DNA of 64,000 nucleotides from Candidatus Omnitrophota bacterium (GTDB lineage: Bacteria > Omnitrophota > Gorgyraeia > Gygaellales > Profunditerraquicolaceae). Positions 23,600 through 51,300 of the stretch are shown one piece after another. The notes under the pieces were generated by a model that did no database searches, was not told where the DNA came from, and saw nothing but the letters and a program-made list of their open reading frames with translations. Within the stretch, counting starts at the first letter, position 1, and every line of letters begins with the position of its first letter. The position numbers were made by a program, and so were the translations under genes. The DNA lies in contig JAKLGJ010000001.1 in NCBI GenBank assembly GCA_022710715.1, forward strand, positions 362,041 to 426,040, read 5' to 3'.

Positions 23600-23601
23600 T
23601 T

Positions 23602-24849: not shown

Positions 24850-24850
24850 A

Positions 24851-26212: not shown

Positions 26213-26243
26213 TTATCAGAAGTGCTAAGATTATGCAAATAAT

Positions 26244-27419: not shown

Positions 27420-27442
27420 TGAAATCTGGAGCGTGTGTGATG

Positions 27443-28117: not shown

Positions 28118-28213
28118 TCCAGTAAGTTTGTTAACATCCAAGTTTATATAGAGTTTTAGCAGGTCTTGTTTTCTAATATAATAGGACCTGTTAATGCAAT
28201 AAGGCTAGATTAA

Positions 28214-29341: not shown

Positions 29342-29343
29342 AC

Positions 29344-31227: not shown

Positions 31228-31234
31228 GAATCCG

Positions 31235-32392: not shown

Positions 32393-32396
32393 AACA

Positions 32397-34325: not shown

Positions 34326-34326
34326 T

Positions 34327-35241: not shown

Positions 35242-36353
35242 TGAAGAGGAAGAAGATCCTTGTTGTTTTTGGTACGCGGCCTGAAGCCATTAAAATGGCC
35301 CCGGTAGTTAAAGAGTTGAGGAAAGAAAAGAGCAGTTTTCAGACAGTGGTTTGCGTGACCGGACAGCATCGGCATATGCTCGATCAGGTCTTGAAGCTTT
35401 TTAAGATCAGGCCGGATATGGATTTGAATCTAATGCAGGAAAATCAAAGCTTGCCCTCACTGACTGCCAGGGCTTTGGTTATCTTAACTGAAACGTTACA
35501 GCGAGTAAAGCCCGACCTTGTCCTGGTTCAGGGAGATACGACTACAGCTATGGTTGCTGCTCTCGCTGCTTTTTACCAGAAAATCCCTGTAGGGCATGTT
35601 GAGGCTGGTTTGAGAACACACGATATTTACAATCCTTTTCCTGAAGAGGTTAACCGATGTATTATTTCTGCTATGGCCAGCTTTAATTTTGCGCCCACTC
35701 GGATATCTTATCAGGCTTTAATCGATCAGGGAATTAGCAAGCAAAGGGTATTATTAACAGGAAATACTGTTGTCGATGCGCTCAGAATGATCGTGAAATC
35801 CGGGAAATTCGCTAAAGTCAATATTGCTCTCAAGAAGAACTCTCGGCTTATCTTGGTTACTGCCCATCGCAGGGAAAATTTTGGCCGGCCTCTCGAACAA
35901 ATATGCGATGCTTTGAATGCTATCGTGAAAAGAAATCCAGATGTTGAGGTGGTTTATCCTGTGCATCTTAATCCCAATGTAAAGAACACTGTTTATGAAA
36001 GATTGGCTGGCAAAGAACGCATTCATCTGATCGCTCCTACTGAATATGACCAGCTGGTATATTTGATCAAAAACGCTTATCTGATATTAACAGATTCCGG
36101 TGGGATTCAGGAAGAGGCACCGGCATTTGGCAAACCTGTTCTGGTTATGCGAGAAGAGACAGAGCGTCCCGAAGGGATTGAAGCAGGAGTGGCTAGATTG
36201 GTAGGAACAAATACGGCGATTATTGTTAAAGAAGTCGAGAAGTTATTGACTCGAGAAGCAGTATACAACAAAATGTCAAGAGCTGTTTCTCCTTATGGCG
36301 ATGGCAAGGCAGCTGAGCGGATTATTAAGCATTTAAAATTTCATCTGGGGTAG
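35238..36353 (+). CDS. wecB: UDP-N-acetylglucosamine 2-epimerase (non-hydrolysing)
   Basis: KILVVFGTRPEAIKMAPV, HVEAGLRT and DSGGIQEEAP signatures. ATGA overlap with the upstream stop. Confidence 0.9.
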   Translation: MMKRKKILVVFGTRPEAIKMAPVVKELRKEKSSFQTVVCVTGQHRHMLDQVLKLFKIRPDMDLNLMQENQSLPSLTARALVILTETLQRVKPDLVLVQGDTTTAMVAALAAFYQKIPVGHVEAGLRTHDIYNPFPEEVNRCIISAMASFNFAPTRISYQALIDQGISKQRVLLTGNTVVDALRMIVKSGKFAKVNIALKKNSRLILVTAHRRENFGRPLEQICDALNAIVKRNPDVEVVYPVHLNPNVKNTVYERLAGKERIHLIAPTEYDQLVYLIKNAYLILTDSGGIQEEAPAFGKPVLVMREETERPEGIEAGVARLVGTNTAIIVKEVEKLLTREAVYNKMSRAVSPYGDGKAAERIIKHLKFHLG

Positions 36354-36355
36354 GC

Positions 36356-37501
36356 ATGAATTTTCTTTTTCCATATATGGCTCGCTGGAAGAGCGTTAAC
36401 TGGACGAGGTATCACCAGATTTTCACAGAACTGGCCAGGGAAGGCCATAATGTTCATGTTATTCAGACTCCGCCTCAGGTTTCCAGAGAGACAAATTTCC
36501 AGGAAATCGAGGTGGAGATTCCCGAGAAACTTTTTCTGCACGAAATCGGAGTGGATCCCTTCATCTGGCAGGCGCAGCTACCTTTGAATAAGCTTATAAA
36601 AAAGGGATATTACAGTTATAAGTGTATCAAGGAAGTCAAGCGTATGGTTAAGGAATACGCTATTGATGTGCTCTTTTTATATAATATTCCTCAATTACCG
36701 CTTATGGATGTAAAAGGTTGTGTTAAGATCTTTGATTTTGCAGATGATTATACCGCGATGTTGAAGCAGGAGTTAGGGCCATTGTCTAATCCATTGGTAA
36801 TGAAGATAGGTCAATCAATGCTGAACAGCATGGTAGAAAAAAGCGATCTGACTTTAGCCGTATCCAAAGTTTTGGCTGATTCTATACAGAGTAAAGATCC
36901 GAGAAAAATCCATGTGCTGCCCAATGGGGTTGACTTAGATCCTCTTCGGATAGGAACCGGTAAAGACATCAGGGCGAAGTATAAAAAACCGATTATCGGT
37001 TTTATCGGATCATTCGAGTATTTTATAGATTTTGAATTAATTTTGGAGGGAGCGCGTAGATTTTTGGAATACACTTTTTTGTTGGTCGGTGGAGGGAGAG
37101 ATTTCGCTCGGGTTAAGCAGCAGGTGGAGAAAGACGGTTTGAACAATGTAGTTCTGACTGGTGGAGTTCCGCATGCAGACATCTATAAATATATTGATGC
37201 GATGGACGTTTGTTTGAATATTTTTAAGCCTATCAGGATTTCGCATGCCGCTTGTCCAATCAAGCTGTTTGAGTATCTTTCGATGAAGAAGCCTGTTATC
37301 AGTACACGGTTGGAAGAACTGAAGTATATCGATCAGAATTTCTTGTTTTATGCGGATAATGCAGACGAATTAGTCAAAGCAGTAAATACGATTTTGCAAG
37401 ACAAAGCAGACACTCTAAGAAAGATTGAAGTTGGTTTTCGTCTTGTTGAAAATAACTATCAATGGTCGGAGATTGCCTCGCGATTGCTTGATATGTTGTA
37501 A
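36356..37501 (+). CDS. glycosyltransferase (GT4-like)
   Basis: Two Rossmann-like halves and a C-terminal GT1/4-type domain. Confidence 0.65.
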   Translation: MNFLFPYMARWKSVNWTRYHQIFTELAREGHNVHVIQTPPQVSRETNFQEIEVEIPEKLFLHEIGVDPFIWQAQLPLNKLIKKGYYSYKCIKEVKRMVKEYAIDVLFLYNIPQLPLMDVKGCVKIFDFADDYTAMLKQELGPLSNPLVMKIGQSMLNSMVEKSDLTLAVSKVLADSIQSKDPRKIHVLPNGVDLDPLRIGTGKDIRAKYKKPIIGFIGSFEYFIDFELILEGARRFLEYTFLLVGGGRDFARVKQQVEKDGLNNVVLTGGVPHADIYKYIDAMDVCLNIFKPIRISHAACPIKLFEYLSMKKPVISTRLEELKYIDQNFLFYADNADELVKAVNTILQDKADTLRKIEVGFRLVENNYQWSEIASRLLDML

Positions 37502-37542
37502 CCTCGTGCAATGACTCGAGTATTTTTATTAAGAAGGGATAT

Positions 37543-38586
37543 ATGTCAGATATCAAGAAGGGAAGAATTACAAGCATTGATTCTTTTAAAGTGATAGCAA
37601 TTTTTGCAGTCATTTGTATTCACACGCGGCCATTTAAGTACAGTGGCATTTCTTATTTGAATGATAATCTTTTATTTATTTCAAAACTTATTAATGTTTC
37701 TTGCCGTTTTGCGGTTCCTTTTTTCTTTATTGTTACTGGTTATTTCTGGGGTGAAGCTTTAAAACAGGGAGAAAAAATTGAAGGTCTTCTAAAGAAGACG
37801 GTTTTAAAATTAGTCAAATCATATTTATTCTGGATGACGGTATATGCTTTTTTCCCCGAAGGTTTCATGGACGCTATTTTAAAAGACGGATTACTAATCG
37901 GTTTGAAAAAATCTTTTGAAGCCAATACTTTAGTATTAATTAAAGAGCATCTCCTTGGTTTTGTCCTTCGCGGTACTTCTTTTCATCTATGGTTTATTCC
38001 TGCTCTTTTATTTGCTGTGATTTTTTTGGCGTTATGTATTAAGTTACGTAAGGCAATCTATATTCTTCCAATTTCGATTGCCTTATATGTTTTGGGTTTA
38101 GTTGGAGGTACTTATTCAAAATTCTTTAGTGGATTGCCATTTACCTACGATACTCGTAACGGACCTTTTATGGGGACTCTTTTTGTAGCTTTAGGATGGG
38201 TGTTTTCTTATTATGGAGTTAAGAAGTATGTAAATTGGTATTGTGCTTTTCTCGTTCTTTGCGTAGGATTAGTTATGCAGTTAATTGAATTCAAAATGAG
38301 CGGATTCCTCTTTGATTATGCAATTGGCACAGTTCCCTATGCTTCTGGTTTTTTTCTTTTAGCTTTGTCAAAACCCGAAATGAAGTTCTTTATTTATAAT
38401 CTGGGTAGATTTACTGCAGGGATTTACTTCGCGCATATCTTTTTTCTTAATCTTTTCCTTCCTTTTCAGGTGTTTGTCTTGCCTTGGGTGTGGGATTTGA
38501 CCTTTTGTTTTGTTATTATGTTTGCCACTTCTGGTGCTGTATTATTAATGCAGAAGAATAAGCTACTCAAACAATTTGTCCTCTAA
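37543..38586 (+). CDS. acyltransferase family 3 membrane O-acyltransferase (OatA/WecH-like)
   Basis: IDSFKVIAIFAVICIHT motif and about 10 TM helices. Confidence 0.8.
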   Translation: MSDIKKGRITSIDSFKVIAIFAVICIHTRPFKYSGISYLNDNLLFISKLINVSCRFAVPFFFIVTGYFWGEALKQGEKIEGLLKKTVLKLVKSYLFWMTVYAFFPEGFMDAILKDGLLIGLKKSFEANTLVLIKEHLLGFVLRGTSFHLWFIPALLFAVIFLALCIKLRKAIYILPISIALYVLGLVGGTYSKFFSGLPFTYDTRNGPFMGTLFVALGWVFSYYGVKKYVNWYCAFLVLCVGLVMQLIEFKMSGFLFDYAIGTVPYASGFFLLALSKPEMKFFIYNLGRFTAGIYFAHIFFLNLFLPFQVFVLPWVWDLTFCFVIMFATSGAVLLMQKNKLLKQFVL

Positions 38587-38674
38587 CTCTTTTAAAAATA
38601 TTATAGGTCATTGAGTTTTTTTATATAATAGTGTTCAGCGTTGAAATGATTAATGCTGAAAGGAAGGAGACAGT

Positions 38675-40210
38675 ATGGTCAATATTTTTAAAGAAAAACA
38701 GAATAAAATAACTTTCTTTGTTTTTATCTCGTTGCTTTTCATTTCCTTGATCCCACTTTTTGCTACGAAAGTATTACCTCTTTACGACTATCCGAATCAT
38801 ATGGTTCGGTTGCATATAATACATAATATCAATACTAATCCTGTTTTAGGCCAATTTTATACTGTGAATTGGCAATTATTGCCTAATCTTGCTTTTGATA
38901 TAATAGGTTTGTTTTTTACTATGATATTCGGCGCAGACACTGCTGGTCGAATTTTTGTCGGTCTTATATTTATCATTATATCTACGGGAACGGTTGCTTT
39001 ACACTATGCGTTGTATAAGAAAGTGTCGCCATGGATATTAATTGTATTCCTTTTTCTCTACAATGAAGTCTTGCTTGTGGCAAATTTGTCTTATTTATTT
39101 AGCGTTGGCTTTTTCTTGTGGGTGACCGCTTTATGGATTATATTCCGTAAACAAAAAACTTGGGTGAATATCGCAGTTTTTTCAACAATAACATTTCTGC
39201 TCTTTATCAGTCATTTGTATGGTTTTTGTCTTTATGGTCTAGTTGTGGTTGGATATGAACTCAAACAGCATCAAAATGCTAAAAAATCGTTCTTCAGGCC
39301 TTCGAAATATCTTATTTTATCAATTGCGCAGTTTGTTCCTTCATTATTGCTTTATTTCTTTGTAAGCCCTACATCTACTTCAGCAGGGTCGCATAGAATT
39401 GGTTTTGCAAGCTTGATTGAAAAAGTAATAAGCTGGTCATATATCATTGATTTCTATCATCCACCTCTTCAATTAGTCGTGGCGTGTTTACTACTCTTGG
39501 GTGGAGCATATTTAATCTGGCGACGAGATATTGTATTCGCTAAAGACATGTTGTTTTCTGCTATTATTCTTTTCGTGGCATTTTTGTTTGCCCCAACAGG
39601 AATTATCGGTACTTATTTTGTATCGCAGCGATTGCCTGTAGCTATAACCTTTTTTCTTATCGCATGTATTTCTATTCCACATTTTAATACCCGCTTTCGT
39701 AGGATAATCCCTTTTGCGATAAGTTTGCTTGTTATAATCCATACGGGATTTATATATTCCAAATGGCAATCTTTTCAGCCTATTTATGAAGATTTTTTTA
39801 ATGCGATGAATAAGGTTGAACGGGCCTCGACAATTATAACGGTAATTGCGAATAATGGTTCGTGGCATAAAACTTTAGAACCGTCATTGTTATATGCGAG
39901 CTGTTTTTCAGTTATTGAAAAACCAATTTTTGTTTCATCGCTATTTGTTTATAAAACGCAGCAGCCTCTTAACGTTAAACCTGCTTACGAATCTCTTGTG
40001 GTTGATGGAATTATTTTCACAGAAGGGACGCTTAAACAAGTGCAACAAGAAGGTGCTCGAAGTTCAAGAAATCCTTTGCAAAACGATTTACTTATGAAAT
40101 ATGATTATGTTCTTATTGTCAATGAAGAGTTTTTTCCTTTTCCTATATCGGATAATTTTGAAAGAAAATATGCATCTGAAAAAATAAAGTTGTATCAAAA
40201 AAAGAAATAA
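38675..40210 (+). CDS. hypothetical polytopic membrane protein (possibly GT-C-like); not exosortase-like
   Basis: RBS GGAAGGAGA. About 12 TM helices in the N-terminal 380 aa, then a soluble C-terminal domain. Confidence 0.55.
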   Translation: MVNIFKEKQNKITFFVFISLLFISLIPLFATKVLPLYDYPNHMVRLHIIHNINTNPVLGQFYTVNWQLLPNLAFDIIGLFFTMIFGADTAGRIFVGLIFIIISTGTVALHYALYKKVSPWILIVFLFLYNEVLLVANLSYLFSVGFFLWVTALWIIFRKQKTWVNIAVFSTITFLLFISHLYGFCLYGLVVVGYELKQHQNAKKSFFRPSKYLILSIAQFVPSLLLYFFVSPTSTSAGSHRIGFASLIEKVISWSYIIDFYHPPLQLVVACLLLLGGAYLIWRRDIVFAKDMLFSAIILFVAFLFAPTGIIGTYFVSQRLPVAITFFLIACISIPHFNTRFRRIIPFAISLLVIIHTGFIYSKWQSFQPIYEDFFNAMNKVERASTIITVIANNGSWHKTLEPSLLYASCFSVIEKPIFVSSLFVYKTQQPLNVKPAYESLVVDGIIFTEGTLKQVQQEGARSSRNPLQNDLLMKYDYVLIVNEEFFPFPISDNFERKYASEKIKLYQKKK

Positions 40211-40294
40211 TTTGCAATGTTAAGCTTTTTTATTGCATTACGCTAAATGTTTTCTGGCGTTCCTTAACAATATTGCGTTCGATTTTTTACGTTA

Positions 40295-40323
40295 TTGGCA
40301 AGATTGACTTTTTATGTTATAGT
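40295..40323 (+). promoter_or_regulatory. sigma70-like promoter of the short beta-helix gene
   Basis: TTGGCA, 17-nt spacer, TATAGT. Its downstream part is duplicated exactly at 42300-42328. Confidence 0.5.
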
Positions 40324-40374
40324 CTAGTAGAAGAAAAAAATTAGCCAGATCATTATCATAATTCTTGCAGAACT

Positions 40375-42180
40375 ATGAAAACAATCAAAATCTTGCTTAT
40401 AGTGCTGGTAACCCAGTTGTTGTTCTTGTCTTCATTTGTTTATGCAGCCACATACTATGTAGATGGGGCTGTGGCTACGGATAGCGGCAATGGAAGTCAA
40501 TCTTCCCCCAAGAAATATATTAAATCCGGTATCGCTCTTATGTCTGGGGGAGATACGCTTATTATAGCTGACGGTACATACACAGGTACGCAGAATAATA
40601 TGTGTACCGATGGCGGGTGGGATTGGACGGGTATTCCTGATGGATCGTCAGGGGCATACACTACCATTAAAGCAGCTAATGACTTTGGTGTCATTATTGA
40701 TGGTGGCGGGACACTTACTGGATTATATCCTAACGGATTGAGCTACGCGGTCATACAGGGGATAATTTTCCAGAATGGCGGTTCCAATGTATATCTTACT
40801 CATTGCGATCATGTGAAAATTATTAAGTGCGGTGGTGTTGATGCTGCCGCTGGGAATGTATGTAATTTTAATTCAGCTGACGGTGATTATATTTTGTTTG
40901 AAGATTGCTTTTCGTGGGGGAGGGGTAGATATAAATTTCTTATAGGAGGCGGATCAACGTATACTGTGTTGCGGCGGTGTGTAGGGCGATATGACTATCA
41001 CGATGCCGAAAATCCTCATGGCGTTTTTTCCTTTTATGGCGGCTCTACTGCGGATTGCTATGTTCAAAATTGCATTGCTATTGATGGTCTTGCTGTGTCC
41101 GGGTCAAATACACAAGCTCTTTATGCTCCGAACGGATCGACTCGGTTGACTTTTGATTCTTGTATTGTTCTGAATAATGGCGGACCTGGAAACTTTTTTG
41201 AGTCATCTGCAACCTCACCAACCTTAAAAAATAGCGTTATTTGGTATGGGACTGCAACTGATACTGCTGCCTCGCAATCATACACGCCGCCCTCAAGCGA
41301 GACTGTTATTGGTTGTACTCTAGGTAGATTCCCTTATGGGATTATTGCACAAGGGACAACAGTTACCAATTCTATATTTTATGGAATGACACACGATGGT
41401 ATTTCCTGGGCAACTAACGATTATTGTAATTTATACGGTAACGGAAATGCTTATTCAAGCACTACTGGTGGATCGCATAATACATTAGTTAATCCACTTG
41501 TCAACGGTTTGACATATTTACCGCGTATAGAATCTGGATCGACACTTAAAACAGCAGGTTCTTCTGGTGGTCAGATCGGTGCGCAAATAGAATATAAATT
41601 GGGAACCTCAGGATCTCTCTACGGAGAAACCGGATGGAATACGTTAACCAGTGATTCCTTATGGCCATTTCCGAATGAAGATGTGATTCGGGAAAGAATG
41701 CGGGTATATAATCTACATGATGTTAATGGTGCTCGTGGTTTTTGCGCTGACGGCCAGACCCTCACCAAATACATCTGGGAATATTTAGGGAATACCATAC
41801 CTGTGGAAATCTATGAGAGCGGGCGAGATTCCGCGGAAAGTACTTCTGGTAATAATGCCAATAGTGTGAGTTCAGTTGAATCTCCCATTTCCAATCCAGT
41901 TGTAGGTGGTAGTAACAGTGGAGGAGGAGGTGGTGGTGGAAGTTGTTTTATAGCTTCAGCTGTTTATGGCGCAAACGCCAATGAAACGAAAACTTTAAGA
42001 GAGTTTAGAGATGGTTATTTATTAAAATCAAAACTTGGGAATGTTTTAGTAAAGTTATACTACATATCTACTCCTCCAATAGCGCATTATTTAGAAAAAA
42101 GAATTTGGGCGAAGAATGTAATGCGTAAAGTATTAAATCCTCTCGTTGCGTTGGTTAATCAAGAATTAAATAAACGATAG
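40375..42180 (+). CDS. secreted right-handed parallel beta-helix (pectin-lyase-fold) protein with a Gly-run + Cys-initiated conserved C-terminal module
   Basis: Signal peptide, then [45 protein letters not shown] typical of beta-helix proteins. G7-S-CFIASAVYG... C-terminal domain. Confidence 0.8.
   Translation: MKTIKILLIVLVTQLLFLSSFVYAATYYVDGAVATDSGNGSQSSPKKYIKSGIALMSGGDTLIIADGTYTGTQNNMCTDGGWDWTGIPDGSSGAYTTIKAANDFGVIIDGGGTLTGLYPNGLSYAVIQGIIFQNGGSNVYLTHCDHVKIIKCGGVDAAAGNVCNFNSADGDYILFEDCFSWGRGRYKFLIGGGSTYTVLRRCVGRYDYHDAENPHGVFSFYGGSTADCYVQNCIAIDGLAVSGSNTQALYAPNGSTRLTFDSCIVLNNGGPGNFFESSATSPTLKNSVIWYGTATDTAASQSYTPPSSETVIGCTLGRFPYGIIAQGTTVTNSIFYGMTHDGISWATNDYCNLYGNGNAYSSTTGGSHNTLVNPLVNGLTYLPRIESGSTLKTAGSSGGQIGAQIEYKLGTSGSLYGETGWNTLTSDSLWPFPNEDVIRERMRVYNLHDVNGARGFCADGQTLTKYIWEYLGNTIPVEIYESGRDSAESTSGNNANSVSSVESPISNPVVGGSNSGGGGGGGSCFIASAVYGANANETKTLREFRDGYLLKSKLGNVLVKLYYISTPPIAHYLEKRIWAKNVMRKVLNPLVALVNQELNKR
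41944..42177 (+). other. conserved C-terminal module (short paralog)
   Basis: CFIASAVYGA...LREFRDGYLL...VKLYYISTPPIAHYLEKR...LNPLVALV aligns with 51812-52042. Confidence 0.6.
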
Positions 42181-42299
42181 CAATATCTTTCAAGATCAAT
42201 CCTAAAGTAAATTTCCCGCCAAAACAAATTTTAATTAAAACATTGTTATAGAATAACTTACAAACATAAATAATTTGTTTAAAAATATTCAACGTGATA

Positions 42300-42328
42300 T
42301 TGACAAGATTAACTTTTTATGTTATAGT
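42300..42328 (+). promoter_or_regulatory. sigma70-like promoter of the giant beta-helix gene (duplicate)
   Basis: TTGACA, 17-nt spacer, TATAGT. Sequence is identical to 40310 onward. Confidence 0.5.
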
Positions 42329-42379
42329 CTAGTAGAAGAAAAAAATTAGCCAGATCATTATCATAATTCTTGCAGAACT

Positions 42380-45300
42380 ATGAAAACAATCAAAATCTTG
42401 CTTATAGTGCTGGTAACCCAGTTGTTGTTCTTGTCTTCATTTGTTTATGCAGCCACATACTATGTAGATGGGGCTGTGGCTACGGATAGCGGCAATGGAA
42501 GTCAATCTTCCCCCAAGAAATATATTAAATCCGGTATCGCTCTTATGTCTGGGGGAGATACGCTTATTATAGCTGACGGTACATACACAGGTACGCAGAA
42601 TAATATGTGTACCGATGGCGGGTGGGATTGGACGGGTATTCCTGATGGATCGTCAGGGGCATACACTACCATTAAAGCAGCTAATGACTTTGGTGTCATT
42701 ATTGATGGTGGCGGGACACTTACTGGATTATATCCTAACGGATTGAGCTACGCGGTCATACAGGGGATAATTTTTCAAAATGGCGGTTCCAATGTATATC
42801 TTACTAATTGCGACCATGTAAAAATTTTAAAATGCGCTGGAGTTGATGCTGCCGCTGGGAATGTGTGTAATTTTAATTCAGCTGACGGTGATTATATTTT
42901 GTTTGAAGATTGCTTTTCTTGGGGGAGAGGCCGGTATAAGTTTCTGATTGGAGGAGGTTCAACATATACTATCTTGCGAAGATGTGTAGGGCGATATGAT
43001 TATCATGATGCCGAGAATCCTCACGGAGTTTTTTCTTTTTATGGGGGTTCTTCGACTGATTGTTACGTGCAAAATTGTATTGCTGTTGATGGTCTTGCTG
43101 CTTCTGGTTATGGAACTACCGCATTGTATGCTCCTAATGGGTCCACAAGATTAACTTTTGATTCTTGTATTGTTCTGAATAATGGAGGTGCGGGCAATTT
43201 CTTTGAATCCGGAGCGACATCCCCAACATTGAAGAATAGCGTTATTTGGTATGGCACTTCAGCAGGTACGGCGGCTTCTCAATCATATAGTGAACCATCT
43301 AATGAAACCGTTATAAATTGCACTCTTGGTAGATTCCCATATGGAATTATATCAGCCCATACGAGCGTATCTAACAGTATATTCTATGGCATGACGAGTG
43401 ATGCGATCTCTTGGTCTACAAATAATTATTGTAATTTGTATGGCAATGGTAATAACTATTCAAGCACAACCGGAGGAGTAAATAATGTTGTGTATTCGCC
43501 ACTAACCAATGGTTTAAGATACCTCCCTAGAATAGAATCCAGTTCAACTCTTAAGACCGCTGGTTCATCTGGTGGTCAAATTGGAGCACAGATTATTTAT
43601 CGTCTGGGTGTTTCGGGTACTCTTTACGGAGAGACTGGGTGGAATACGCTAACTGATGAGAATCTATGGCCATTTCCGAATGAAGATGTGATTCGAGAAA
43701 AAATGCGTGTATATAATTTGCATGATGTTAATGGTACTCGCGGTTTTTGCGCGGATGGCCAGACCCTCACCAAGTACATCTGGGAATATTTAGGGAATAC
43801 CATCCCTCCGGAAATTTATGGTGCGCCGGCGACGCCGACGATCAGCACGAGTTCTTTAGCCGGGGGGACAACCGGGACAGCGTACAGCCAGACTTTAGCG
43901 GTTTCCGGCGGGACTTCGCCTTATTCCTGGACCGTTGCTTCCGGTTCGTTGCCTGCGGGCTTGAGCCTGAATATTTCTACCGGAGTTATCTCCGGCACGC
44001 CTTCGGCTGTCGGGACTTCGAGCTTTACCGTGCAGGTGATGGATGCCGAGACGGTGACTGATACCCAGGCGCTTTCTATCGTGGTCAGCGCTCCGGATTT
44101 GACCGCGCCCACGATTTCCTCAATCGCTGCGGGAAGTATTACCGGTTCAGGCGCTGCGATCACCTGGACGACCAATGAAGCGGCTACTTCGCGGGTGGAA
44201 TACGGCACGAGCGTTGCTTATGGTTCACAGACTACTTTGGATAGTACCTTGGTTACCAGCCATTCGGTGAATCTTACCGGCTTGAGCGCTAATACTACCT
44301 ATCATTACCGGGTGAAGAGCCAGGATGCGGCGGCTAATGAAACAGTATCCGCGGACAATTCTTTTACTACCGGTGGTTCTACGGATTACGTCAGCCCCAG
44401 CCCGGACGTAAACTTAACTGATTTTGAATCGGTTCCCGAAGAAGGGACAATGACCGTGAATATTCCGGTTGATCCTTCCACGGCTACTTCTGCAGCGATC
44501 ATTTTAACTATTTATGACGCGGAGAATCCCAATGAAGGCAACTTCTATATCAACGGCAACGGAGAGACTGCGATTCCGTACGGCGATTCTTATGATTCCG
44601 TAGATCATACTTTTGCCCCGATCACGATTAACAAGTCTTATCTGGTGCAGGGCGATAATACCATCAGGTTTACCCATTTAGCTACCAGCGGATTTATTGT
44701 CAGGGATGTGACTATTCGTTTGACCTTTACCGGGTCAAGCGATACTACCGCGCCTTCAGCCGTCAGCACCCTGGCTGCTGCTACCGGCACGAACCGGGGG
44801 ACGGTGAATCTGACCTGGACCTCGCCCGGGGATGATGCTGCTACCGGCACAGCCACCAGCTATACCATCAAGTATTCCACTTCCCAGATCACCAATGACG
44901 CGCAGTTTACCGCGGCTACGGATGTGACCGGTGAACCCGCGCCGGCAGTAGCCGGGACTTCGCAATCGATGACGGTTACCGGTTTGACTCCGGGGACGAC
45001 TTATTATTTCGCGATCAAGACCACAGATGAAGCCGGCAATACCGCCACGATCTCCAATTCTCCCGGCGCGCAGGCTAAGCCCAATGTTCTTCCGGTTTTA
45101 GCTGCGATCGGCGCCAAGAGCGTGAATGAGAATGCCGCGCTTTCCTTTACTATCAGCGCTACTGACGCGGATGGCGACGCGATCACTTATTCTGCCAGCG
45201 GTTTGCCTTCCGGAGCCACGTTCACTGCCGGTACCCGGACATTTGCCTGGACGCCTGCGTACACCCAGGCGGGTTCCTATTCCGTAACCTTTACCGCCAC

Positions 45301-48300
45301 TGATACCCAGTCAGCCAGCGATTCCGAAACCGTCACTATTACCGTAGCTAATGTCAACCGCGCGCCGGTATTGGCGGCGATCGGGGCAAAGAGCGGGTCG
45401 GAAAATACTTTATTGACCTTTACTTTGAGCGCTACGGATGCTGACAGCGATGCTTTGACCTATTCCTGCACTAATCTGCCTTCCGGATCGACTTTGAATG
45501 AATCGACCGGCGTGTTCAGCTGGACCCCGTCATATACCCAGGCAGCCACGTACGGGGCGGTGCATTTCGTGGTTTCCGACGGTAGTCTGACGGATACCGA
45601 GAATATCACCATTACCATCGCTAATACCAACCGCGCGCCGGTGCTTGATGCTATCGGTAATAAGTCGGTCAATGAAAACAGCGCTTTGAGTTTTGACCTT
45701 AATGCCACGGATGCGGATGATGATATCGTAGCTTACAGCGCTTCAGGTTTACCTGCCGGCGCGGTTTTCGACGCGGGGAACTTCAGCTGGACTCCGACGT
45801 ACTCCCAAGCAGGCACATACACCGTGACTTTTACCGCGGATGATCTTAGCGGCGGGACTGATTCCGAGACGATCACTATCACTGTGGGCAATCTGAACCG
45901 CGTGCCGGTGTTAGCGGCTATCGGGAATAAGGCCGTGGATGAGAATGCGCTGTTGAGTTTTGTGATCAGCGCTACTGATGCGGATAGCGATACCTTGACT
46001 TATTCCGCCACGAATTTGCCTTCGGGCGCTACTTTTACCGCCGGGACCAGGACTTTCGCCTGGACGCCGGGCGGCACGCAGGCCGGTAATTACAGTGTAT
46101 CTTTCAGCGTGACCGATCCTAACGGCGGCATCGATTCCGAGACGATCACTATTACCGTAGGCGATGTGAATGCTCCTCCGGTTCTGGCAGCTATCGGCGC
46201 TAAATCGGTGAATGAGAATGCGGCATTGAGCTTTGTGATCAGCGCTACTGATGGTGATGGCGACGCGTTGACCTATGCTGCCGCTAATCTGCCTTCCGGC
46301 GCTACTTTTACCGCCGGGACCAGGACTTTCGCCTGGACGCCGTCGTATACCCAGTCCGGTTCGTATACCGTGACTTTCAGCGTGGATGACGGTCTGGGCG
46401 GGACGGATTCCGAAGCGGTGGTGATTACTGTGGCTAATATGAATCGCGCGCCGGTGCTGGGAGCGGTGGGGAACAAAGCCGTGAATGAGAATGCGGCGTT
46501 GAGCTTTACGTTGAGCGCTACCGATGCGGACAGCGATACTTTAGTTTATTCTGCCACAGGTTTACCTGTCGGCGCTACTTTAGACAGCGCGACCGGGTCT
46601 TTTGCCTGGACGCCGACCTACGCGCAGTCGGGCAACTACAGCGTGACCTTCAGTGTCAGCGACGGCAACGGCGGGACGGATTCGGAAACCATCGGTATCG
46701 CGGTGAATAATGTCAACCGGGTGCCGGTGCTGGACGCGGTAGGCGCGAAATCGGTAGATGAAGGGGTAGCTTTGACTTTTACTTTGAACGCTGCTGACGC
46801 GGATAGCGATACTCTGACTTACGCGGCTGCTAATTTGCCTTCCGGCGCCACGTTTACCGCCGGCACGCGCACTTTCGCCTGGACGCCGGGCGGCACGCAA
46901 TCCGGAACTTACAATGTGACTTTCAGCGTGGATGACGGCAACGGCGGCACAGATTCGGAAACAATCGCGATTACCGTAAATAATGTCAATGTCGCGCCGG
47001 TGTTGAGCGCGATCGGCGCCAAGAGTGTGAATGAGAACGCGGCATTGAGTTTTGTGATCAGCGCTACGGATAGCGATGGAGACGCGATAACCTGCGCGGC
47101 TTCCAATCTACCCGCAGGCGCTACTTTTACCGCCGGGACCAGGACATTCGCCTGGACGCCGTCGTATACACAGTCCGGATCTTACACCGTGACTTTCAGC
47201 GTGGATGACGGTTTGGGCGGGACGGATTCCGAAGCGGTGGCGATTACGGTGGCTAATGTGAATCGCGTTCCGGTATTGGCGGCTGTGGGCAACAAAAACG
47301 TGGATGAAAACGTGGCGTTGAGTTTCAGCTTGAGCGCCACTGACGCAGATAGCGATACTTTGACATATTCCGGTGCCGGGATGCCTGTGGGCGCGACTTT
47401 TAATAGTGCCAACGGAGCGTTCAGCTGGACGCCGACCTATACCCAGGCCGGAAGCTATAGCGTAACTTTCAGCGCCAGCGACGGTAACGGCGGCGAGGAT
47501 TCCGAGGCTATCACTATTACTGTCGCGAATGTAAATCGCGTTCCGGTGTTGGCGGCAATCGGGGCAAAGAGCGTGGACGAGGGAACGGGTTTGAGCTTTA
47601 CGGTCAGCGCGACGGATGCGGATAACGATACCTTGACTTATACGGCTGCGGATGTGCCGGCTGGAGCGAGTTTCACTGCCGGAACCAGGACGTTCAGCTG
47701 GACTCCCAGTTGTCTGCAGTCGGGTGTGTATACGGTGACTTTCAGCGTGGATGACGGCAATGGCGGCACAGATTCCGAAGCGGTGGTTATCAGCGTGAAC
47801 AACGTGAATTGTCCGCCGGTGTTAGCGGCGATCGGCGCAAAGAGCGTTAACGAGAACGCGCAGTTGCAGTTTACGGTCAGCGCCACGGATCCGGAAGGCG
47901 ACAGCTTAACTTATTCCGCGGCGGGATTACCGGCGGGAGCGACTTTTGCGGGTTCGACATTTACCTGGACGCCGTCATATAGTCAGGCGGGTTCTGCTAC
48001 AGTGACGATTACTGCCGACGACGGTAACGGCGGCACGGATTCCGAAGCTGTGGTTATCAGCGTGGCGGATGTGAACCGCTCGCCGATCCTGGATCTGACC
48101 GGCAATAAGACGGTGAATGAGAACAGCGTTTTGAGTTTTGATATCAACGCGACTGATCCGGATGGCGACGTGGTGGCTTATAGCGCGACCGGTGTTCCTG
48201 CGGGCGCGGTATTCAGCGCGGGCAGCTTTAGCTGGACACCGTCATATACCCAGGCCGGTTCCTATACTGTGGTCTTTACCGCGGATGATCTCAATGGCGG

Positions 48301-51300
48301 GGAAGATTCGGAAACGATCACCATTACCGTGAATAATGTGAATCGCGCGCCGGTGCTGGCGGCGATCGGGAATAAGAGCGTGAATGAAGCCGCCGCTCTG
48401 GTTTTCAGCGTCAGCTCAACCGACGCAGACGGCCAGGCTTTGACTTTGTCCGCTGCGAACCTGCCTGCGGGCGCTACTTTTAACGCCGGGACCGGGGTGT
48501 TCAGCTGGACTCCTTCGTATTCCCAGGCCGGCGCATTTGCCGGGGTGCATTTCGAAGTTACCGACGGCGCGGCCACGGATAGCGAAGATATTACCATTAC
48601 GGTGAGCAATGTGAACCGGGAACCGGTTCTGGCCGCCATCGGCGCTAAAACGGTGAATGAAAACGTGCAATTGCAGTTTACCGGTTCCGCGACCGATGCG
48701 GACGGCGATGTTTTGACTTACAGCGCTACCGGATTGCCGGCAGGAGCGACCTTCGCGGGTTCGACTTTTACCTGGACGCCGACGTACGCGCAGTCCGGGA
48801 ATTTCACCGTGACCATCAGCGTGGCGGATACTAACGGCGGGACGGATTCCGAAGCGGTGACGATTTCCGTAGGTAACGTGAACCGGCCGCCGGTATTGGC
48901 TGCGGTGGGGAATAAGACTGTAGCCGAGAATGCGGCGTTAGGATTTACGGTCAACGCTACGGATCCGGACGGTGATGCAGTGACGCTATCTGCAGCGAAT
49001 CTGCCTTCCGGCGCGACGTTTAACGCTGCGACGGGCGCGTTCAGCTGGACTCCGGGTTACGCGCAAGCCGGGGCATACGCGACCGTGCAATTCGCAGCCA
49101 GTGATGGCTCTTTGAGTGATGCGGAAACCATTACGATCACTGTTACAAACACTGATACCACACCGGTTTTAGCGGCTATCGGAAACAAGACGGTGACGGA
49201 AAATGCGGCGCTGTCGTTTACGGTCAGCGCTGTTGACGTAGATGGCGACGCTTTGACGTATGCTGCGGCCGGATTGCCGGCCGGGGCTTCGTTCGCCAGC
49301 CAGGCATTTAACTGGACCCCGGGTTATGATCAGGCGGGTACCTATACGGTGACATTCTCGGTGGAGGATGGGGCGGGCAATAGCGATTCCGAAGCGGTTA
49401 CGATTACGGTGAGCAATGTTAACCGCGCGCCGGCGATGGCTGCGATCGGGAATAAGTCGGTGGTGGCTAAGTCCGAACTGACCTTTACCGTCAGCGCTAC
49501 TGATGCCGACGGCGACGCGGTGACTTATGCGGCTTCAGGTTTGTCGGCCGGTGCGACGTTTAATGCCGATTCCGGTGTGTTCAGCTGGATCCCGACCAAT
49601 GCCGACGCCGGGAATCATACCATTACTTTCAGCGCGACGGATGGTTTAGCTTCCGCTACCGAGGCGATCACCGTGGCAGTGGATGTCCTGGATGAAGAGC
49701 CGCCGTATCTGGATTCATTGAATCCGGAAGAGGGCGAAGTGCAGGTTTCGCGCGATTCCGACGTGTTCTTCTACCTGAAGGACGCGCTTAAGGGGGTCAA
49801 TAAGGATACGATCAATTTGAGCATCAAGCGCGAAGGCGACGCCGCGGCGACCAATGTTATCGTCAACGGGGTAAATCAGCTCTCATCGTATCCGAATAAC
49901 GTGATCCTCCAGAGCAGCAGCGGCAATTACGCGGTAAAGTACGATCCTCCGACCAGCCGCGACTATCGCTTTAAATACGAGCAGAAGATCACGGTGACAG
50001 TCAGCGGCCGCGACCTGGCCGGCAATCAGCTGGCGCCGTACACCTATGATTTCACTACCGCCATGCTGCTTAAGGGGCCGAACAAGAGGGTGAGTACCAC
50101 CACTACGACTACGGCTGAACCTGCTCCGGCGCCGGCAGGCGGCGTGGATGGCGCGGTGCAGCCGCCGGCTGCGACCCAGGTGGTGAATAAAGATAATTCC
50201 TGTCTGGTGATGAATAAATCCAGCAACAAAGTGTATATGGTCTGGCAGGACGACGCCGGACAGATCTGGTTCAATAAATCCGAGGACCGGGGGGTGACTT
50301 TTATCCAGGATACCCAGTTGACCGGCGCTTTGACCGGAACGAACCGCAATCCGCAGATGGCCGTGGATGATCCTGGGAACTTGTATGTGATCTGGGAGAA
50401 CGTGCAGACGGATAATTCGTCGGATCTGTATTTTGCCCGGCTGGATAATAACAGCGCTGCCTGGCAGATCGCGGTGATCCCGGCGGATATCGCGCTGGGC
50501 GTTGCGGCGAATCAGGCGCAGCCGTCTTTAGACGTAACTTCGAGCGGCACGGTGGTGATCGCCTGGGTCAACGGCGCTTCCGGTGTATATTATGCCCGGT
50601 CGACGGATCAGGGCGATAGTTTATGGAATCTGACTGCCGCGCAGACCAAACGGGTGGACGACGGGACTGCGGCGGCGTTTGCTTATCCGGAAATCAAGTT
50701 GAGCGTGAATAGTCAGAATAAGTATGTGGTCTGGAGCGCGGAGAAAAATAGCGAGCGCAATATTTATTTCAACGCTTTGAATAATCAGAATAATCGGGTT
50801 TACGCCCAGGATATTCAGATCAACGACGCGAATAGCGGCACTGCGGCGGACCGGCCGAGTCTGGCCATGCGGCCGGAAGTCGGCGGCGGCGGGCAGAAGG
50901 TGGGTATTTGCGCGGCCTGGGAAAATACCGGCGCTGACGGCGATACGGATATTTATTTCGACAAATCGGTTACCGGCGAGGTGTGGGGCGCGGATATTCA
51001 GGTCAACGAAGACGCGCAGACGCCGCAGGCGCAGAAAGAGCCGGCGCTGGCCATGGATGCCGACGGAAGTATTTTTGCGGTGTGGAGCGATTACCGCAAC
51101 GGCGAATGGGATATTTATTACGCCAATTGCCTGGATAACGGGTTGACTTTCAAGACGAATATTCTGGTGAATGCCGATTCCGGCACCGCGGTGCAGGATA
51201 AACCTTCCTTGTACTTGAGCGCGGACGGCAACCACGTGTGCATCTCCTGGACGGATTATCGTGACGGTAACGGAGCGATCTATTTTAACCGCAACTCCTA

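What the first reader, a model, noticed from the sequence alone, without database searches (positions are those of the whole stretch)
40295..43800. Tandem paralogs with identical promoter + 5' ~470 bp: short (601 aa) and giant (3221 aa) versions of one surface protein
The stretch from about 40310 to 40772 is 100% identical to 42310-42775, covering promoter, leader and the first 143 codons. The next ~950 bp are about 90% identical and diverge further 3'-ward. Both genes end in the same C-terminal module. The short gene is in effect beta-helix + linker + module. The giant gene has the same ends with about 2600 aa of Ig, FN3, cadherin-like and BNR domains inserted. Perfect identity restricted to the 5' end suggests ongoing gene conversion. 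The 2-kb direct repeat is also a substrate for deletion that would fuse the short gene's promoter and head onto the giant body. This could be a cassette-like diversification or regulated-length system for a surface adhesin or enzyme.
Basis: seen in the sequence. Interest (0 to 1): 0.65.

Follow-up and report, generated by a model that had tools for sequence, protein, structure and literature searches.

The report
Two surface-protein genes sharing one head
Two neighbouring genes at the end of a sugar-coat gene cluster in an uncultured Omnitrophota bacterium carry the same enzyme-like head, one on a short and one on a very long stalk, and DNA copying between them has made their first 463 bases identical; this is a clean example of a known process, not a new kind of system.

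Summary
Window 40293-41802 and 42298-43807 form a gap-free 1510-nt direct repeat at offset 2005. It covers a sigma-70-like promoter, the leader, the signal peptide and a 476-aa head, in a 601-aa gene and a 3221-aa gene.

- **Identity pattern:** 463 nt are identical (40307-40769). The rest is 86%, then 68%, then 92% identical. Four-fold sites differ at 0/67, 18/47, 52/75 and 4/18. dN/dS is about 0.07. These are old, selected paralogs with recent gene-conversion tracts.
- **Head:** a right-handed beta-helix of the polysaccharide lyase/hydrolase/tailspike type, from an uncharacterised family.
- **Tails:** both are CFI-box-CTERM (NF041770) but only about 40% identical.
the giant gene is a compositional mosaic. 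Its head has the GC3 (0.33) of the adjacent low-GC Wzx/Wzy polysaccharide cassette. Its body and tail (0.58-0.72) match the native backbone. The switch is near codon 456.
- **Relatives:** a short-plus-long pair at the end of a glycan cluster recurs in a relative (L030), where the two heads are only 39% identical.
- **Reality check:** five public assemblies show the same structure, so it is not an artefact.
- **Not found:** no recombinase, inverted repeats or repeat tracts that would indicate programmed variation.

Interest is moderate to low.

The parts
9193..40210 (+). Low-GC3 variable part of a Wzx/Wzy-type polysaccharide biosynthesis cluster. It holds GT2/GT4 glycosyltransferases, a Wzx-like flippase (18857-20371), a Wzy_C protein (23602-24849), AsnB-like amidotransferases, methyltransferases, a deacetylase, a UDP-GlcNAc 2-epimerase, an acyltransferase and an 11-TM protein of unknown family (38675-40210).
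   Evidence: Pfam scans. GC3 is 0.27-0.53, mostly 0.29-0.45, against 0.56-0.70 for backbone genes at 1086-8532. TM count.
40293..41802 (+). Repeat copy 1: promoter, leader, signal peptide and beta-helix head of the short gene.
   Evidence: Offset 2005, no indels, 1272/1510 identical to copy 2.
40295..40323 (+). Sigma-70-like promoter of the short gene (TTGGCA, 17-nt spacer, TG-TATAGT).
   Evidence: Consensus scan, 10 of 12 matches with an extended -10. Similarity between the copies starts here. Function is not shown.
40307..40769 (+). 463-nt tract identical to 42312-42774. This is the most recent gene-conversion tract.
   Evidence: 0 of 67 four-fold sites differ.
40375..42180 (+). Short gene, 601 aa: signal peptide (aa 1-24), beta-helix head (to aa 476), Ser/Gly-rich linker, CFI-box-CTERM (aa 524-591, nt 41944-42147).
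   Evidence: NCBI HOW42793.1, Candidatus Omnitrophota bacterium.
42298..43807 (+). Repeat copy 2: promoter, leader, signal peptide and head of the giant gene.
42300..42328 (+). Sigma-70-like promoter of the giant gene (TTGACA, 17-nt spacer, TG-TATAGT).
   Evidence: 11 of 12 matches.
42380..52045 (+). Giant gene, 3221 aa: head; then He_PIG, FN3, an unknown domain and FN3; then about 17 He_PIG/Big_9/cadherin-like repeats of 91 aa; then a BNR-like and a ZU5-like region; then a Gly run and CFI-box-CTERM (aa 3145-3213, nt 51812-52018).
   Evidence: Called at full length in two ENA assemblies.
43700..43835 (+). Compositional breakpoint inside the giant ORF. The maximum-likelihood GC3 change point is codon 456 (nt 43748), with GC3 0.31 to the left and 0.59 to the right. 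It lies on the most conserved block of the head family ([19 protein letters not shown]).
   Evidence: Conservation.
45140..49600 (+). Array of 267/273-nt repeats encoding the Ig/cadherin-like stalk.

Best explanation
The window comes from an uncultured Candidatus Omnitrophota bacterium. Its first ~52 kb is one large extracellular-polysaccharide locus.

**Layout of the locus.** Export and chain-length genes and nucleotide-sugar genes have native composition. They are followed by a low-GC variable cassette with glycosyltransferases, a flippase and a polymerase. Two co-oriented genes for secreted, C-terminally tagged (CFI-box-CTERM) surface proteins close the cluster.

**The shared head.** Both proteins start with the same ~450-residue right-handed beta-helix head of polysaccharide lyase/hydrolase/tailspike type. 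One head sits on a ~50-residue linker. The other sits on a ~2600-residue Ig-like stalk.

**Shown**
- The heads are old paralogs under strong purifying selection.
- Their similarity is a patchwork of age classes, which is the signature of repeated intrachromosomal gene conversion. The newest tract (463 nt) covers the promoter, leader, signal peptide and first coils.
- The giant gene is a mosaic. Its head shares the composition of the cassette. Its stalk and anchor share that of the backbone. The switch lies on the conserved last ~20 codons of the head.
- The short-plus-long pair at the end of a glycan cluster occurs in at least one other lineage.

**Inferred**
- The head belongs to the horizontally exchanged, glycan-specific part of the locus. 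The right-hand recombination boundary of cassette exchange falls inside the giant gene, at the head/stalk joint.
- The head binds or cleaves the locus's own (or a related) polysaccharide.
- Conversion keeps expression signals and head specificity matched, so the same activity is displayed close to the cell and far from it.
For: **Repeat geometry and identity:**

**Divergence between the heads**
- dS is 0, then 0.29, 0.86, 1.15 and saturated, then about 0.45. Overall dN/dS is 0.07.
- Four-fold sites differ at 0/67, 18/47, 52/75 and 4/18.
- All 21 family-invariant residues are kept in both heads.

**Head fold and family**
- AF2 mean pLDDT 95, pTM 0.92, a beta-helix.
- Foldseek PDB hits: GH136 LnbX, PL9 Pel9A and rhamnogalacturonan lyase, PL6 chondroitinase B and alginate lyases, AlgE4 and phage tailspikes. 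Probability 1.0, TM 0.4-0.58.
- A profile of the family weakly matches PL6, PL9 and GH120 chains.

**Composition**
- GC3 is 0.33-0.34 for the heads, 0.24 for the short tail and 0.58-0.72 for the giant body.
- GC3 is 0.56-0.70 for the backbone and mostly 0.29-0.45 for the cassette.
- The change point is codon 456.

**Locus content:**

**Relatives**
- L004 (Omnitrophota MAG): body 81% identical, head end 66%, GC3 rising 1.2-2.4 kb into the gene.
- L031: body 67% identical, head 50%, GC3 rising ~2 kb into the gene.
- L030: GT/AsnB/deacetylase cluster, then head+FN3+CFI-box (691 aa), then head+He_PIG+FN3 (983 aa), then a BNR/ZU5/CFI-box gene. Its two heads are 39% identical.

**Head family:** 1835 representative clusters at E <= 1e-3. 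Tails are diverse, and 11 of 119 close non-self homologues end in a CFI-box motif.

**Reality of the structure:** five assemblies agree.

**Literature**
- Low-GC O-antigen clusters, with GC and divergence gradients inside edge genes, are attributed to transfer and recombination (PMC3715488).
- Polysaccharide cassettes are reported as hypervariable regions in Omnitrophota (10.64898/2026.06.07.730766).
Against: - No close relative with a complete locus was found, so cassette exchange at this site is inferred from composition and three distant loci. It is not observed directly.
- L030 has a low-GC genome throughout and is uninformative on the boundary.
- No population variants were seen. All five assemblies have the same head sequences, so 'ongoing' conversion is not demonstrated.
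- The window's heads do not reach any Pfam threshold.
- No residue-level match to a known catalytic site was made. The head could be a binding module rather than an enzyme.
- The window's CFI-box tails lack the TM helix and basic tail that most homologues have, so surface anchoring is itself an inference.
- The promoter is a consensus match only.
- In-situ duplication cannot be told apart from import of an already similar pair of heads.
Confidence: 0.65

Rival explanations
1. The two heads were not duplicated in this genome. They are related xenologs brought in by separate cassette replacements, or together as an already similar pair from a low-GC donor. Only the short identical and near-identical tracts arose here by conversion.
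For: - Both heads are uniformly low in GC3 (0.33-0.34) although their mid-regions are saturated at synonymous sites. Their divergence therefore probably predates residence in this high-GC3 genome.
- The pair arrangement is old: L030's heads are 39% identical.
- Breakpoints differ between L004, L031 and the window.
Against: - The two heads are far closer to each other (90% aa) than to anything else among 5.8 billion proteins, where the next hit is 58-62%.
- Their similarity begins and ends at exactly the same positions with no indel. That is most simply explained by one copying event.
- This rival differs from the best explanation only in where the first copy was made.
Confidence: 0.2
2. A programmed variation system, either cassette-type antigenic variation or a length switch. 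Regulated recombination between the two copies would swap heads or delete the short gene to change what is displayed.
For: - A 463-nt perfect direct repeat is ample substrate for RecA-dependent deletion or conversion.
- Surface proteins are frequent targets of such systems, for example bab chimeras in H. pylori (PMC4552749).
Against: - No recombinase, invertase or reverse transcriptase was found in the window's ORFs.
- Inverted repeats do not exceed 14-nt chance matches.
- No simple-sequence tract lies in the promoter or 5' coding region.
- Both copies are complete, promoter-bearing genes under purifying selection.
- Five assemblies from at least four sample accessions show one and the same arrangement.
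- A crossover in the identical tract changes nothing but loss of the short gene.
Confidence: 0.05
3. Assembly artefact or chimeric contig. The duplicated head, or the join between low-GC head and high-GC body, would have been created by the assembler.
For: - All sources are metagenome assemblies.
- The composition jump coincides with the end of a repeat.
- Contigs L004, L032 and L033 break inside or next to a head.
Against: - Three assemblies with contigs of 190 kb, 953 kb and 1.62 Mb are identical here.
- Two more, from other samples and with their own SNPs, span the intergenic region, head, junction and body.
- The ORF stays in frame across the junction.
- Orthologues L004, L030 and L031 have the same head-to-body continuity.
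- Low-GC DNA is flanked by native DNA on both sides.
- A tandem direct repeat with a unique spacer has only one consistent linear path.
Confidence: 0.03
4. A recent simple duplication followed by ordinary divergence. The 5' identity would reflect strong selection on regulatory and signal sequences, not conversion.
For: The identical tract contains the promoter, leader and signal peptide, which are functionally constrained.
Against: - Selection on protein or regulation cannot hold 67 of 67 four-fold degenerate sites identical while 52 of 75 differ 700 nt downstream.
- At least three or four age classes of divergence are present.
Confidence: 0.02

Closest known systems
Helicobacter pylori babA/babB/babC adhesin paralogs (intragenomic gene conversion; PMC4552749)
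   Same: - Paralogous surface-protein genes have near-identical terminal homology regions and a diverged middle.
- Conversion in the 5' region moves expression signals and the N-terminus between copies.
- Both copies remain functional.
   Different: - The bab loci are dispersed, not tandem.
- bab conversion couples genes to a CT-repeat phase switch, and chimeras are seen in populations. Here there is no repeat switch and no observed chimera.
- The proteins are unrelated: bab are outer-membrane beta-barrel adhesins, while these are a beta-helix head with a CFI-box tail.
Low-GC variable O-antigen/capsule cassettes with recombination breakpoints in edge genes (Salmonella rfb/rml, PMC3715488; Enterobacteriales loci, PMC7305143)
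   Same: - A Wzx/Wzy cluster holds low-GC glycosyltransferase, wzx and wzy genes between genes of native composition.
- The GC and divergence boundary falls inside a gene at the cluster edge.
- Blocks nearest the specific genes are low in GC.
   Different: - The edge gene here is not a sugar-pathway gene. It is a 3221-aa surface protein.
- The breakpoint coincides with a domain joint, so a whole functional head belongs to the cassette side.
- Exchange is inferred from composition, not from typed strains.
Phage tailspike/depolymerase modularity (beta-helix receptor-destroying domains swapped onto conserved anchor modules)
   Same: - A right-handed beta-helix glycan-active fold. Tailspikes of HK620, CBA120 and Klebsiella phage K64-1 are among the Foldseek hits.
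- A specificity module is joined to a structurally unrelated attachment module at a conserved joint.
   Different: - This is cellular, not viral. There is no PHROG match.
- The head is N-terminal and the anchor C-terminal, the reverse of most tailspikes.
- Trimerisation was not assessed.
NCBIfam NF041770 CFI-box-CTERM domain proteins
   Same: - Both proteins match the full 69-position model above its cut-off.
- Both have a Gly run followed by the invariant CFIA(T/S)A..YG motif at the extreme C-terminus.
   Different: - Most homologues continue into a hydrophobic helix and a basic tail. The window's two proteins, and a few Omnitrophota relatives, stop before it.
- No literature on this domain was found.
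Giant surface proteins of Omnitrophota (10.1101/2023.11.21.568195; 10.64898/2026.06.07.730766)
   Same: - Same phylum.
- Very long, secreted, repeat-rich proteins with carbohydrate-active modules, found near polysaccharide-related genes.
   Different: - At 3221 aa this protein is far below the 'giant' class of those papers, which runs to tens of thousands of residues.
- Term searches of those two papers found no mention of gene conversion, a CTERM domain or a paralog pair of this kind.

Membership tests
NCBIfam NF041770 CFI-box-CTERM | HMM score above the curated cut-off (40 bits) over the full model | tested here: met
   Short gene: 72.7 bits, aa 524-591, model positions 1-69 of 69. Giant gene: 99.8 bits, aa 3145-3213.
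NCBIfam NF041770 CFI-box-CTERM | Extreme C-terminal position after a Gly-rich spacer, with the invariant C-F-I-A...Y motif | tested here: met
   C25, F26, I27, A28 and Y32 are invariant in 40 sequences.
NCBIfam NF041770 CFI-box-CTERM | Hydrophobic helix plus basic tail after the domain. Most homologues have it, but it is not part of the HMM. | tested here: not met
   The window's two tails end right after the last amphipathic helix. The AF2 model shows four helices and no TM segment, with pLDDT 73.
NCBIfam NF041770 CFI-box-CTERM | A dedicated sorting or processing partner | not testable with these tools
   None is described. The upstream 11-TM protein has no family hit and is not conserved in L030.
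Right-handed parallel beta-helix polysaccharide lyases/hydrolases (PL6, PL9, GH136; Pfam PF13229, PF22842) | Right-handed parallel beta-helix fold | tested here: met
   AF2 mean pLDDT 95. Foldseek probability 1.0 to Pel9A, chondroitinase B, LnbX and alginate lyases, with TM 0.41-0.58 and 10-14% identity.
Right-handed parallel beta-helix polysaccharide lyases/hydrolases (PL6, PL9, GH136; Pfam PF13229, PF22842) | Pfam model at or above the gathering threshold | tested here: not met
   The head has no beta-helix Pfam hit at E <= 0.01. There is only a precomputed 'faint' PF22842 hit. Many homologues do carry PF22842 or PF13229.
Right-handed parallel beta-helix polysaccharide lyases/hydrolases (PL6, PL9, GH136; Pfam PF13229, PF22842) | Catalytic constellation: a Ca2+-binding acidic cluster plus a Lys/Arg base and acid for PL6/PL9, or paired carboxylates for GH | tested here: inconclusive
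   Invariant or near-invariant K148, E176, R200, R201, R205, D207, N232, D237 and N267 recur about one coil apart. No residue-level superposition was available.
Right-handed parallel beta-helix polysaccharide lyases/hydrolases (PL6, PL9, GH136; Pfam PF13229, PF22842) | Demonstrated activity on a polysaccharide | not testable with these tools
   Needs biochemistry.
Intragenomic gene conversion between paralogs (bab-type concerted evolution) | A sharply bounded identity tract within otherwise diverged paralogs, beyond chance | tested here: met
   463/463 identical against 77% over the following 1033 nt. The longest run in any shuffle was 99 nt.
Intragenomic gene conversion between paralogs (bab-type concerted evolution) | Heterogeneous synonymous divergence along the alignment | tested here: met
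   Four-fold sites differ at 0/67, 18/47, 52/75 and 4/18, with Fisher p = 4e-17. dS profile.
Intragenomic gene conversion between paralogs (bab-type concerted evolution) | Recombinant or chimeric variants observable in populations | tested here: inconclusive
   The five consensus assemblies are identical in the heads. Reads were not available.
Programmed variation systems (invertible promoters, shufflons, silent-cassette antigenic variation, DGRs, SSR phase switches) | A site-specific recombinase or reverse transcriptase in the neighbourhood | tested here: not met
   Pfam scans of the window's ORFs of 150 aa or more found none.
Programmed variation systems (invertible promoters, shufflons, silent-cassette antigenic variation, DGRs, SSR phase switches) | Inverted repeats flanking the promoter or segment, or simple-sequence tracts in the promoter or 5' coding region | tested here: not met
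   Only 14-nt chance inverted repeats were found. No tandem or simple repeats lie in 40000-43800.
Programmed variation systems (invertible promoters, shufflons, silent-cassette antigenic variation, DGRs, SSR phase switches) | Promoterless silent donor copies | tested here: not met
   Both copies have a promoter-like site, an ATG and a signal peptide.
Horizontally exchanged variable cassette of a Wzx/Wzy polysaccharide locus | wzx, wzy and multiple glycosyltransferases between conserved export and sugar-precursor genes | tested here: met
   Polysacc_synt/MatE flippase, Wzy_C, GT2/GT4 and others. Poly_export, Wzz/GNVR, PGM and UDP-Glc dehydrogenase lie upstream.
Horizontally exchanged variable cassette of a Wzx/Wzy polysaccharide locus | Atypical composition with sharp boundaries against the backbone | tested here: met
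   GC3 drops from 0.62-0.70 to 0.40 at about 9.2 kb. It returns to 0.58-0.72 at nt ~43748, inside the giant ORF.
Horizontally exchanged variable cassette of a Wzx/Wzy polysaccharide locus | Different cassettes at the same site in close relatives | not tested
   No close relative with a complete locus was retrieved. L004's contig starts inside the head.

The most novel reading that the evidence does not exclude
The beta-helix head is a glycan-type-specific enzymatic or binding module that travels with the exchangeable polysaccharide cassette. It would plug into resident stalk-and-anchor genes through a conserved recombination joint, the [19 protein letters not shown] block at the head's C-terminal cap. 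Each cassette swap would then re-arm both a cell-proximal and a ~100-nm-distal display protein with the matching specificity, and gene conversion would keep the two heads in step. This would be a cellular counterpart of phage tailspike module swapping, in a phylum suspected of predatory or epibiotic life.
Probability: 0.2. Interest if true: 0.6.

Novelty: new variant of a known kind. Interest (0 to 1): 0.35.

Why it matters
- **A textbook-quality example.** It shows concerted evolution between two surface-protein genes in an uncultured phylum. At least three age classes of conversion tract are readable in one alignment.
- **A domain-level cassette edge.** The edge of a horizontally exchanged sugar-coat cassette can lie at a domain joint inside a very long surface-protein gene. 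If this is general, the head family is a good candidate for enzymes or lectins that co-evolve with cell-surface glycans in Omnitrophota, Elusimicrobiota and CPR-like organisms. The family has about 1800 representative clusters and is uncharacterised.
- **An annotation lesson.** Composition-trained gene callers cut the low-GC head off the giant gene. The NCBI record has 2780 aa and JGI has fragments. Mosaic genes of this kind are therefore under-reported in public data.

Tried and rejected
- **Metagenome scan with the giant's head.** Only relatives at 51% identity or less turned up, and no second genome with the tandem pair.
- **Genome scan with the post-head region.** One useful orthologue was found (L004), but its contig starts inside the head. 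The window's own genome was not returned.
- **Contig of P0002.** It shows several adjacent head-family genes, but no DNA was available.
- **Literature.** Nothing was found on 'CFI-box' or on the sample and assembly accessions.
- **PHROGs scan of the short protein and the upstream 11-TM protein.** No hits.
- **Fold search of the CFI-box tail model.** No match below E = 5.
- **tRNA scan.** None found, so there is no tRNA-linked island boundary.
- **Upstream 11-TM protein as a CFI-box sorting enzyme.** Considered and dropped. It has no family hit and is not conserved next to the L030 pair.
- **The 81-nt, 79%-identical block at the end of L030's two heads.** Considered as proof of a recombination joint. 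It is treated only as a hint, because a conserved peptide plus AT-biased codons could produce it.
- **The GC3-rich patch in codons 457-480 of the short gene.** It suggests giant-to-short conversion at the 3' end, but it rests on about 20 codons and is not significant after allowing for multiple windows.

Full report
**1. Observation**

The window has three long + strand ORFs in a row: 40375..42180 (601 aa), 42380..52045 (3221 aa) and 52718..62026 (3102 aa). A direct repeat at a constant offset of 2005 nt, without any indel, links 40293-41802 to 42298-43807.
- The tract 40307-40769 is identical to 42312-42774 (463 nt). Single mismatches lie at 40298, 40306, 40770 and 40773.
- Identity is then 86% (40770-41100), 68% (41101-41659) and 92% (41660-41802). 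It drops to background (32%) on both sides.
- In 20,000 shuffles of the 238 mismatches, the longest clean run was 99 nt.

The figure of 'about 90% over the next 950 bp' is true of the protein only (48 differences in 476 residues). Divergence is also not monotonic.

**2. What the repeat contains**

Similarity starts exactly at a sigma-70-like -35 hexamer. The short gene reads TTGGCA-17-TG-TATAGT at 40295-40323. The giant reads TTGACA-17-TG-TATAGT at 42300-42328. A ~45-nt leader follows, then an identical Sec-type signal peptide ([24 protein letters not shown]|AT) and a 450-residue domain. The promoter is a consensus match only.

**3. Age and selection**

Nei-Gojobori estimates in 40-codon windows give dS of 0, 0, 0, 0.29, 0.86 and 1.15. 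The next five windows are saturated. The last window gives 0.46. dN/dS outside the identical tract is 0.07.

Four-fold degenerate sites differ at 0/67 (codons 1-132), 18/47 (133-246), 52/75 (247-428) and 4/18 (429-476). Fisher p is 4e-17 for the first block against the rest. All 21 residues invariant across 46 family members are kept in both copies.

The two heads are therefore old, both functional and both constrained. Their similarity is a patchwork of at least three age classes. Selection on regulation or on the protein cannot freeze 67 of 67 silent sites. The identical tract is a recent gene-conversion or recombination tract. The graded 5' profile suggests repeated events of different lengths.

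**4. What the head is**

Pfam gives no significant hit for the short protein. With a 46-sequence alignment, AlphaFold2 gives a confident right-handed parallel beta-helix, with mean pLDDT 95 and pTM 0.92.
- Foldseek against the PDB finds GH136 lacto-N-biosidases, PL9 Pel9A and rhamnogalacturonan lyase, PL6 chondroitinase B and alginate lyases. It also finds AlgE4 epimerase, GH87 and phage tailspikes or depolymerases. Probability is 1.0, TM 0.4-0.58 and identity 10-14%.
- A profile of the family weakly matches PL6, PL9 and GH120 chains by sequence.
- Conserved charged residues (K148, E176, R200/201/205, D207, N232, D237, N267) recur about one coil apart. That fits an active-site groove but was not tested by superposition.

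The family is sizeable and uncharacterised, with 1835 representative clusters at E <= 1e-3 and 492 at E <= 1e-30. The head is nearly always N-terminal. It is followed by diverse tails, including T9SS, FN3, He_PIG, dockerin, PKD and CFI-box. Of the 119 closest non-self homologues, 11 end in a CFI-box motif. The nearest non-self homologue is only 58-62% identical.

**5. The C-terminal module**

Both proteins match NCBIfam NF041770 (CFI-box-CTERM) over the whole model, at 72.7 and 99.8 bits against a cut-off of 40. The two tails are only about 40% identical and share no DNA similarity.

In an alignment of 40 tails, most homologues continue into a hydrophobic helix and a basic tail. The window's two proteins and a few Omnitrophota relatives stop before it. 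An AF2 model of the tail has four helices at pLDDT 73 and no PDB neighbour. No paper mentions the domain. 'Surface anchor' is therefore an inference.

**6. The giant gene is a compositional mosaic**

GC3 values are as follows.

| Region | GC3 |
|---|---|
| Backbone genes, 1.1-8.5 kb | 0.56-0.70 |
| Genes from 9.2 to 40.2 kb | 0.27-0.53, mostly 0.29-0.45 |
| Short gene head | 0.34 |
| Short gene tail | 0.24 |
| Giant gene head | 0.33 |
| Rest of the giant gene | 0.58-0.72 |

The maximum-likelihood change point within the giant ORF is codon 456 (nt 43748), with good support across roughly codons 440-485. It lies on the last ~20 codons of the head. Those codons are the most conserved block of the whole family ([19 protein letters not shown]).

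The short gene shares a GC3-rich patch limited to those same codons. This is a weak hint that the 3' similarity block was copied from the giant into the short gene.

**7. Context**

Window 1-40 kb is a Wzx/Wzy-type polysaccharide locus.
- With native composition: Wza-like export, Wzz/GNVR, two P-loop proteins, PGM, a hexapeptide transferase, UDP-glucose dehydrogenase and an epimerase.
- In the low-GC part: GT2/GT4 enzymes, a flippase, Wzy_C, AsnB-like enzymes, methyltransferases, a deacetylase, UDP-GlcNAc 2-epimerase, an acyltransferase and an 11-TM protein of no known family.

This is the classic layout of O-antigen and capsule loci. Their low-GC centres, and the GC or divergence gradients inside their edge genes, are attributed to horizontal transfer and to recombination in flanking genes (PMC3715488). 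Polysaccharide cassettes are reported as hypervariable regions in Omnitrophota (10.64898/2026.06.07.730766). No tRNA or integrase marks the boundaries.

**8. Organism and reality of the structure**

The short protein and backbone proteins are in NCBI as Candidatus Omnitrophota bacterium, HOW42793.1 and others.
- Three assemblies are identical to the window over about 21 kb: ENA ERZ761563 (190-kb contig), NCBI GCA_035390565.1 (953 kb) and JGI 3300010429 (1.62 Mb).
- Two further ENA assemblies from other accessions span the end of the short gene, the intergenic region and the whole 3221-aa gene. They carry 4 and 2 SNPs, none in the head.

An assembler artefact is very unlikely. Ongoing variation is equally not shown.

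**9. Relatives**

- L004, an Omnitrophota MAG: its orthologous body is 81% identical and its head end only 66%. The contig starts inside the head. GC3 stays low for the first ~1.2 kb and reaches backbone level by ~2.4 kb.
- L031: the upstream gene ends in He_PIG plus CFI-box. A head-plus-body gene follows, with body 67% and head 50% identical. GC3 rises ~2 kb into the gene.
- L030, on a 399-kb scaffold of a uniformly low-GC genome: a GT/AsnB/deacetylase/epimerase cluster comes first. A head+FN3+CFI-box gene (691 aa) follows, then head+He_PIG+FN3 (983 aa). An 837-aa gene matching the giant's BNR/ZU5/CFI-box end closes the set. Its two heads are only 39% identical to each other.

The short-plus-long pair at the distal end of a glycan cluster is therefore old. 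Heads diverge faster than bodies, or are replaced. The composition boundary sits at different depths in the long gene in different lineages. The 90% identity of the window's two heads is lineage-specific.

**10. Best explanation (confidence about 0.65 for the evolutionary part)**

The locus holds an old pair of surface-protein genes with a shared glycan-active head. In this lineage one head, with its promoter, overwrote the other, or both arrived as a similar pair. Repeated gene conversion has since re-homogenised the ends, most recently 463 nt at the 5' end. The heads belong compositionally to the exchangeable low-GC cassette, and the giant's stalk and tail to the backbone. The right-hand recombination boundary of the cassette therefore lies at the head/stalk joint.

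The functional reading is inferred. One glycan-cleaving or glycan-binding head would be displayed close to the cell and, on ~17 Ig-like repeats, far from it.

**11. Rivals**

- Separate import of two related heads, about 0.2. This is not cleanly separable from the best explanation.
- Programmed variation or a length switch, about 0.05. No recombinase, inverted repeats, repeat tracts or silent copies were found.
- Assembly artefact, about 0.03.
- Simple recent duplication with selection, about 0.02. The silent-site pattern refutes it.

A crossover inside the identical tract would only remove the short gene and leave the giant unchanged.

**12. Comparison and novelty**

The process resembles bab-type gene conversion among H. 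pylori adhesin paralogs (PMC4552749) and recombination at the edges of O-antigen cassettes (PMC3715488). The architecture recalls modular phage tailspikes.

None of these is a membership claim. The proteins belong to an uncharacterised beta-helix family and to NF041770. I rate this a new variant of known kinds of event. It is well documented, instructive and useful for annotation, but not surprising to a specialist. Interest is 0.35.

The most novel reading not excluded is cassette-linked head swapping at a conserved joint that re-arms two display proteins. I give it about 0.2 probability. It would merit about 0.6.

Noticed in passing
window 42380-43702: Public annotation misses the giant gene's head. 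NCBI (HOW42794.1, HRZ15719.1) and the JGI call start at window 43703 (Met442), giving 2780 aa and leaving ~1.3 kb unannotated. JGI also calls the short gene only as a 264-aa fragment. The cause is probably the low-GC head inside a high-GC gene. Two ENA assemblies call the full 3221 aa.
   Followed up: yes
window 52718-62026 (+): A third very long gene (3102 aa) with PKD/K319L-like domains, Kelch beta-propellers, Big_9, DUF6531, about 15 RHS repeats and a C-terminal NlpC/P60 domain. This is an RHS-type polymorphic toxin or effector architecture. It has no CFI-box and intermediate GC3 (0.45).
   Followed up: partly
window 41944-42147 and 51812-52018; alignment A3: The CFI-box-CTERM tails of both window proteins, and of a few Omnitrophota relatives, lack the hydrophobic helix and basic tail that most homologues carry after the domain. 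How these proteins would be anchored is open.
   Followed up: partly
window 41743-41814 and 43748-43819 (codons 457-480 of both genes): Both heads have GC3 of about 0.6 in their last ~20 codons. In the short gene this is an isolated GC-rich patch between low-GC head and low-GC tail. It hints at a giant-to-short conversion tract but rests on too few codons.
   Followed up: partly
window 38675-40210 (+): A 511-aa protein with about 11 predicted TM segments, immediately upstream of the short gene. It has no Pfam or PHROG hit and is not conserved at the equivalent position in L030. It may be a GT-C-like or polymerase-like enzyme.
   Followed up: partly
L032 (starts at window 41267) and L033 (starts at window 41375); L004 pos 1: Three independent low-coverage contigs break inside or just before a head-family gene. 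This probably reflects the repeat or a coverage problem in low-GC DNA. It means related loci are systematically fragmented at the most informative place.
   Followed up: no
contig of P0002 (JGI 3300075153, no DNA held): The 527-aa P0002 is followed directly by a 554-aa gene with a Pel9A-like hit. Genes of 581 and 511 aa with no family hit flank this pair, and a cohesin-domain gene lies nearby. Tandem arrays of this head may therefore occur in other lineages.
   Followed up: no
L031 4164-4753: Short GC-rich direct repeats (GGGACGAAGGACGAG-like, several copies) lie downstream of the long gene's stop, with one related copy upstream at 551-595. Their nature is unknown.
   Followed up: no
L030 8700-8780 vs 11332-11412: In L030 the two heads are 39% identical in protein. 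The only DNA-level repeat between them is an 81-nt, 79%-identical block encoding the conserved [12 protein letters not shown] end of the head. It could be a recombination joint, or simply a conserved peptide plus biased codons.
   Followed up: partly
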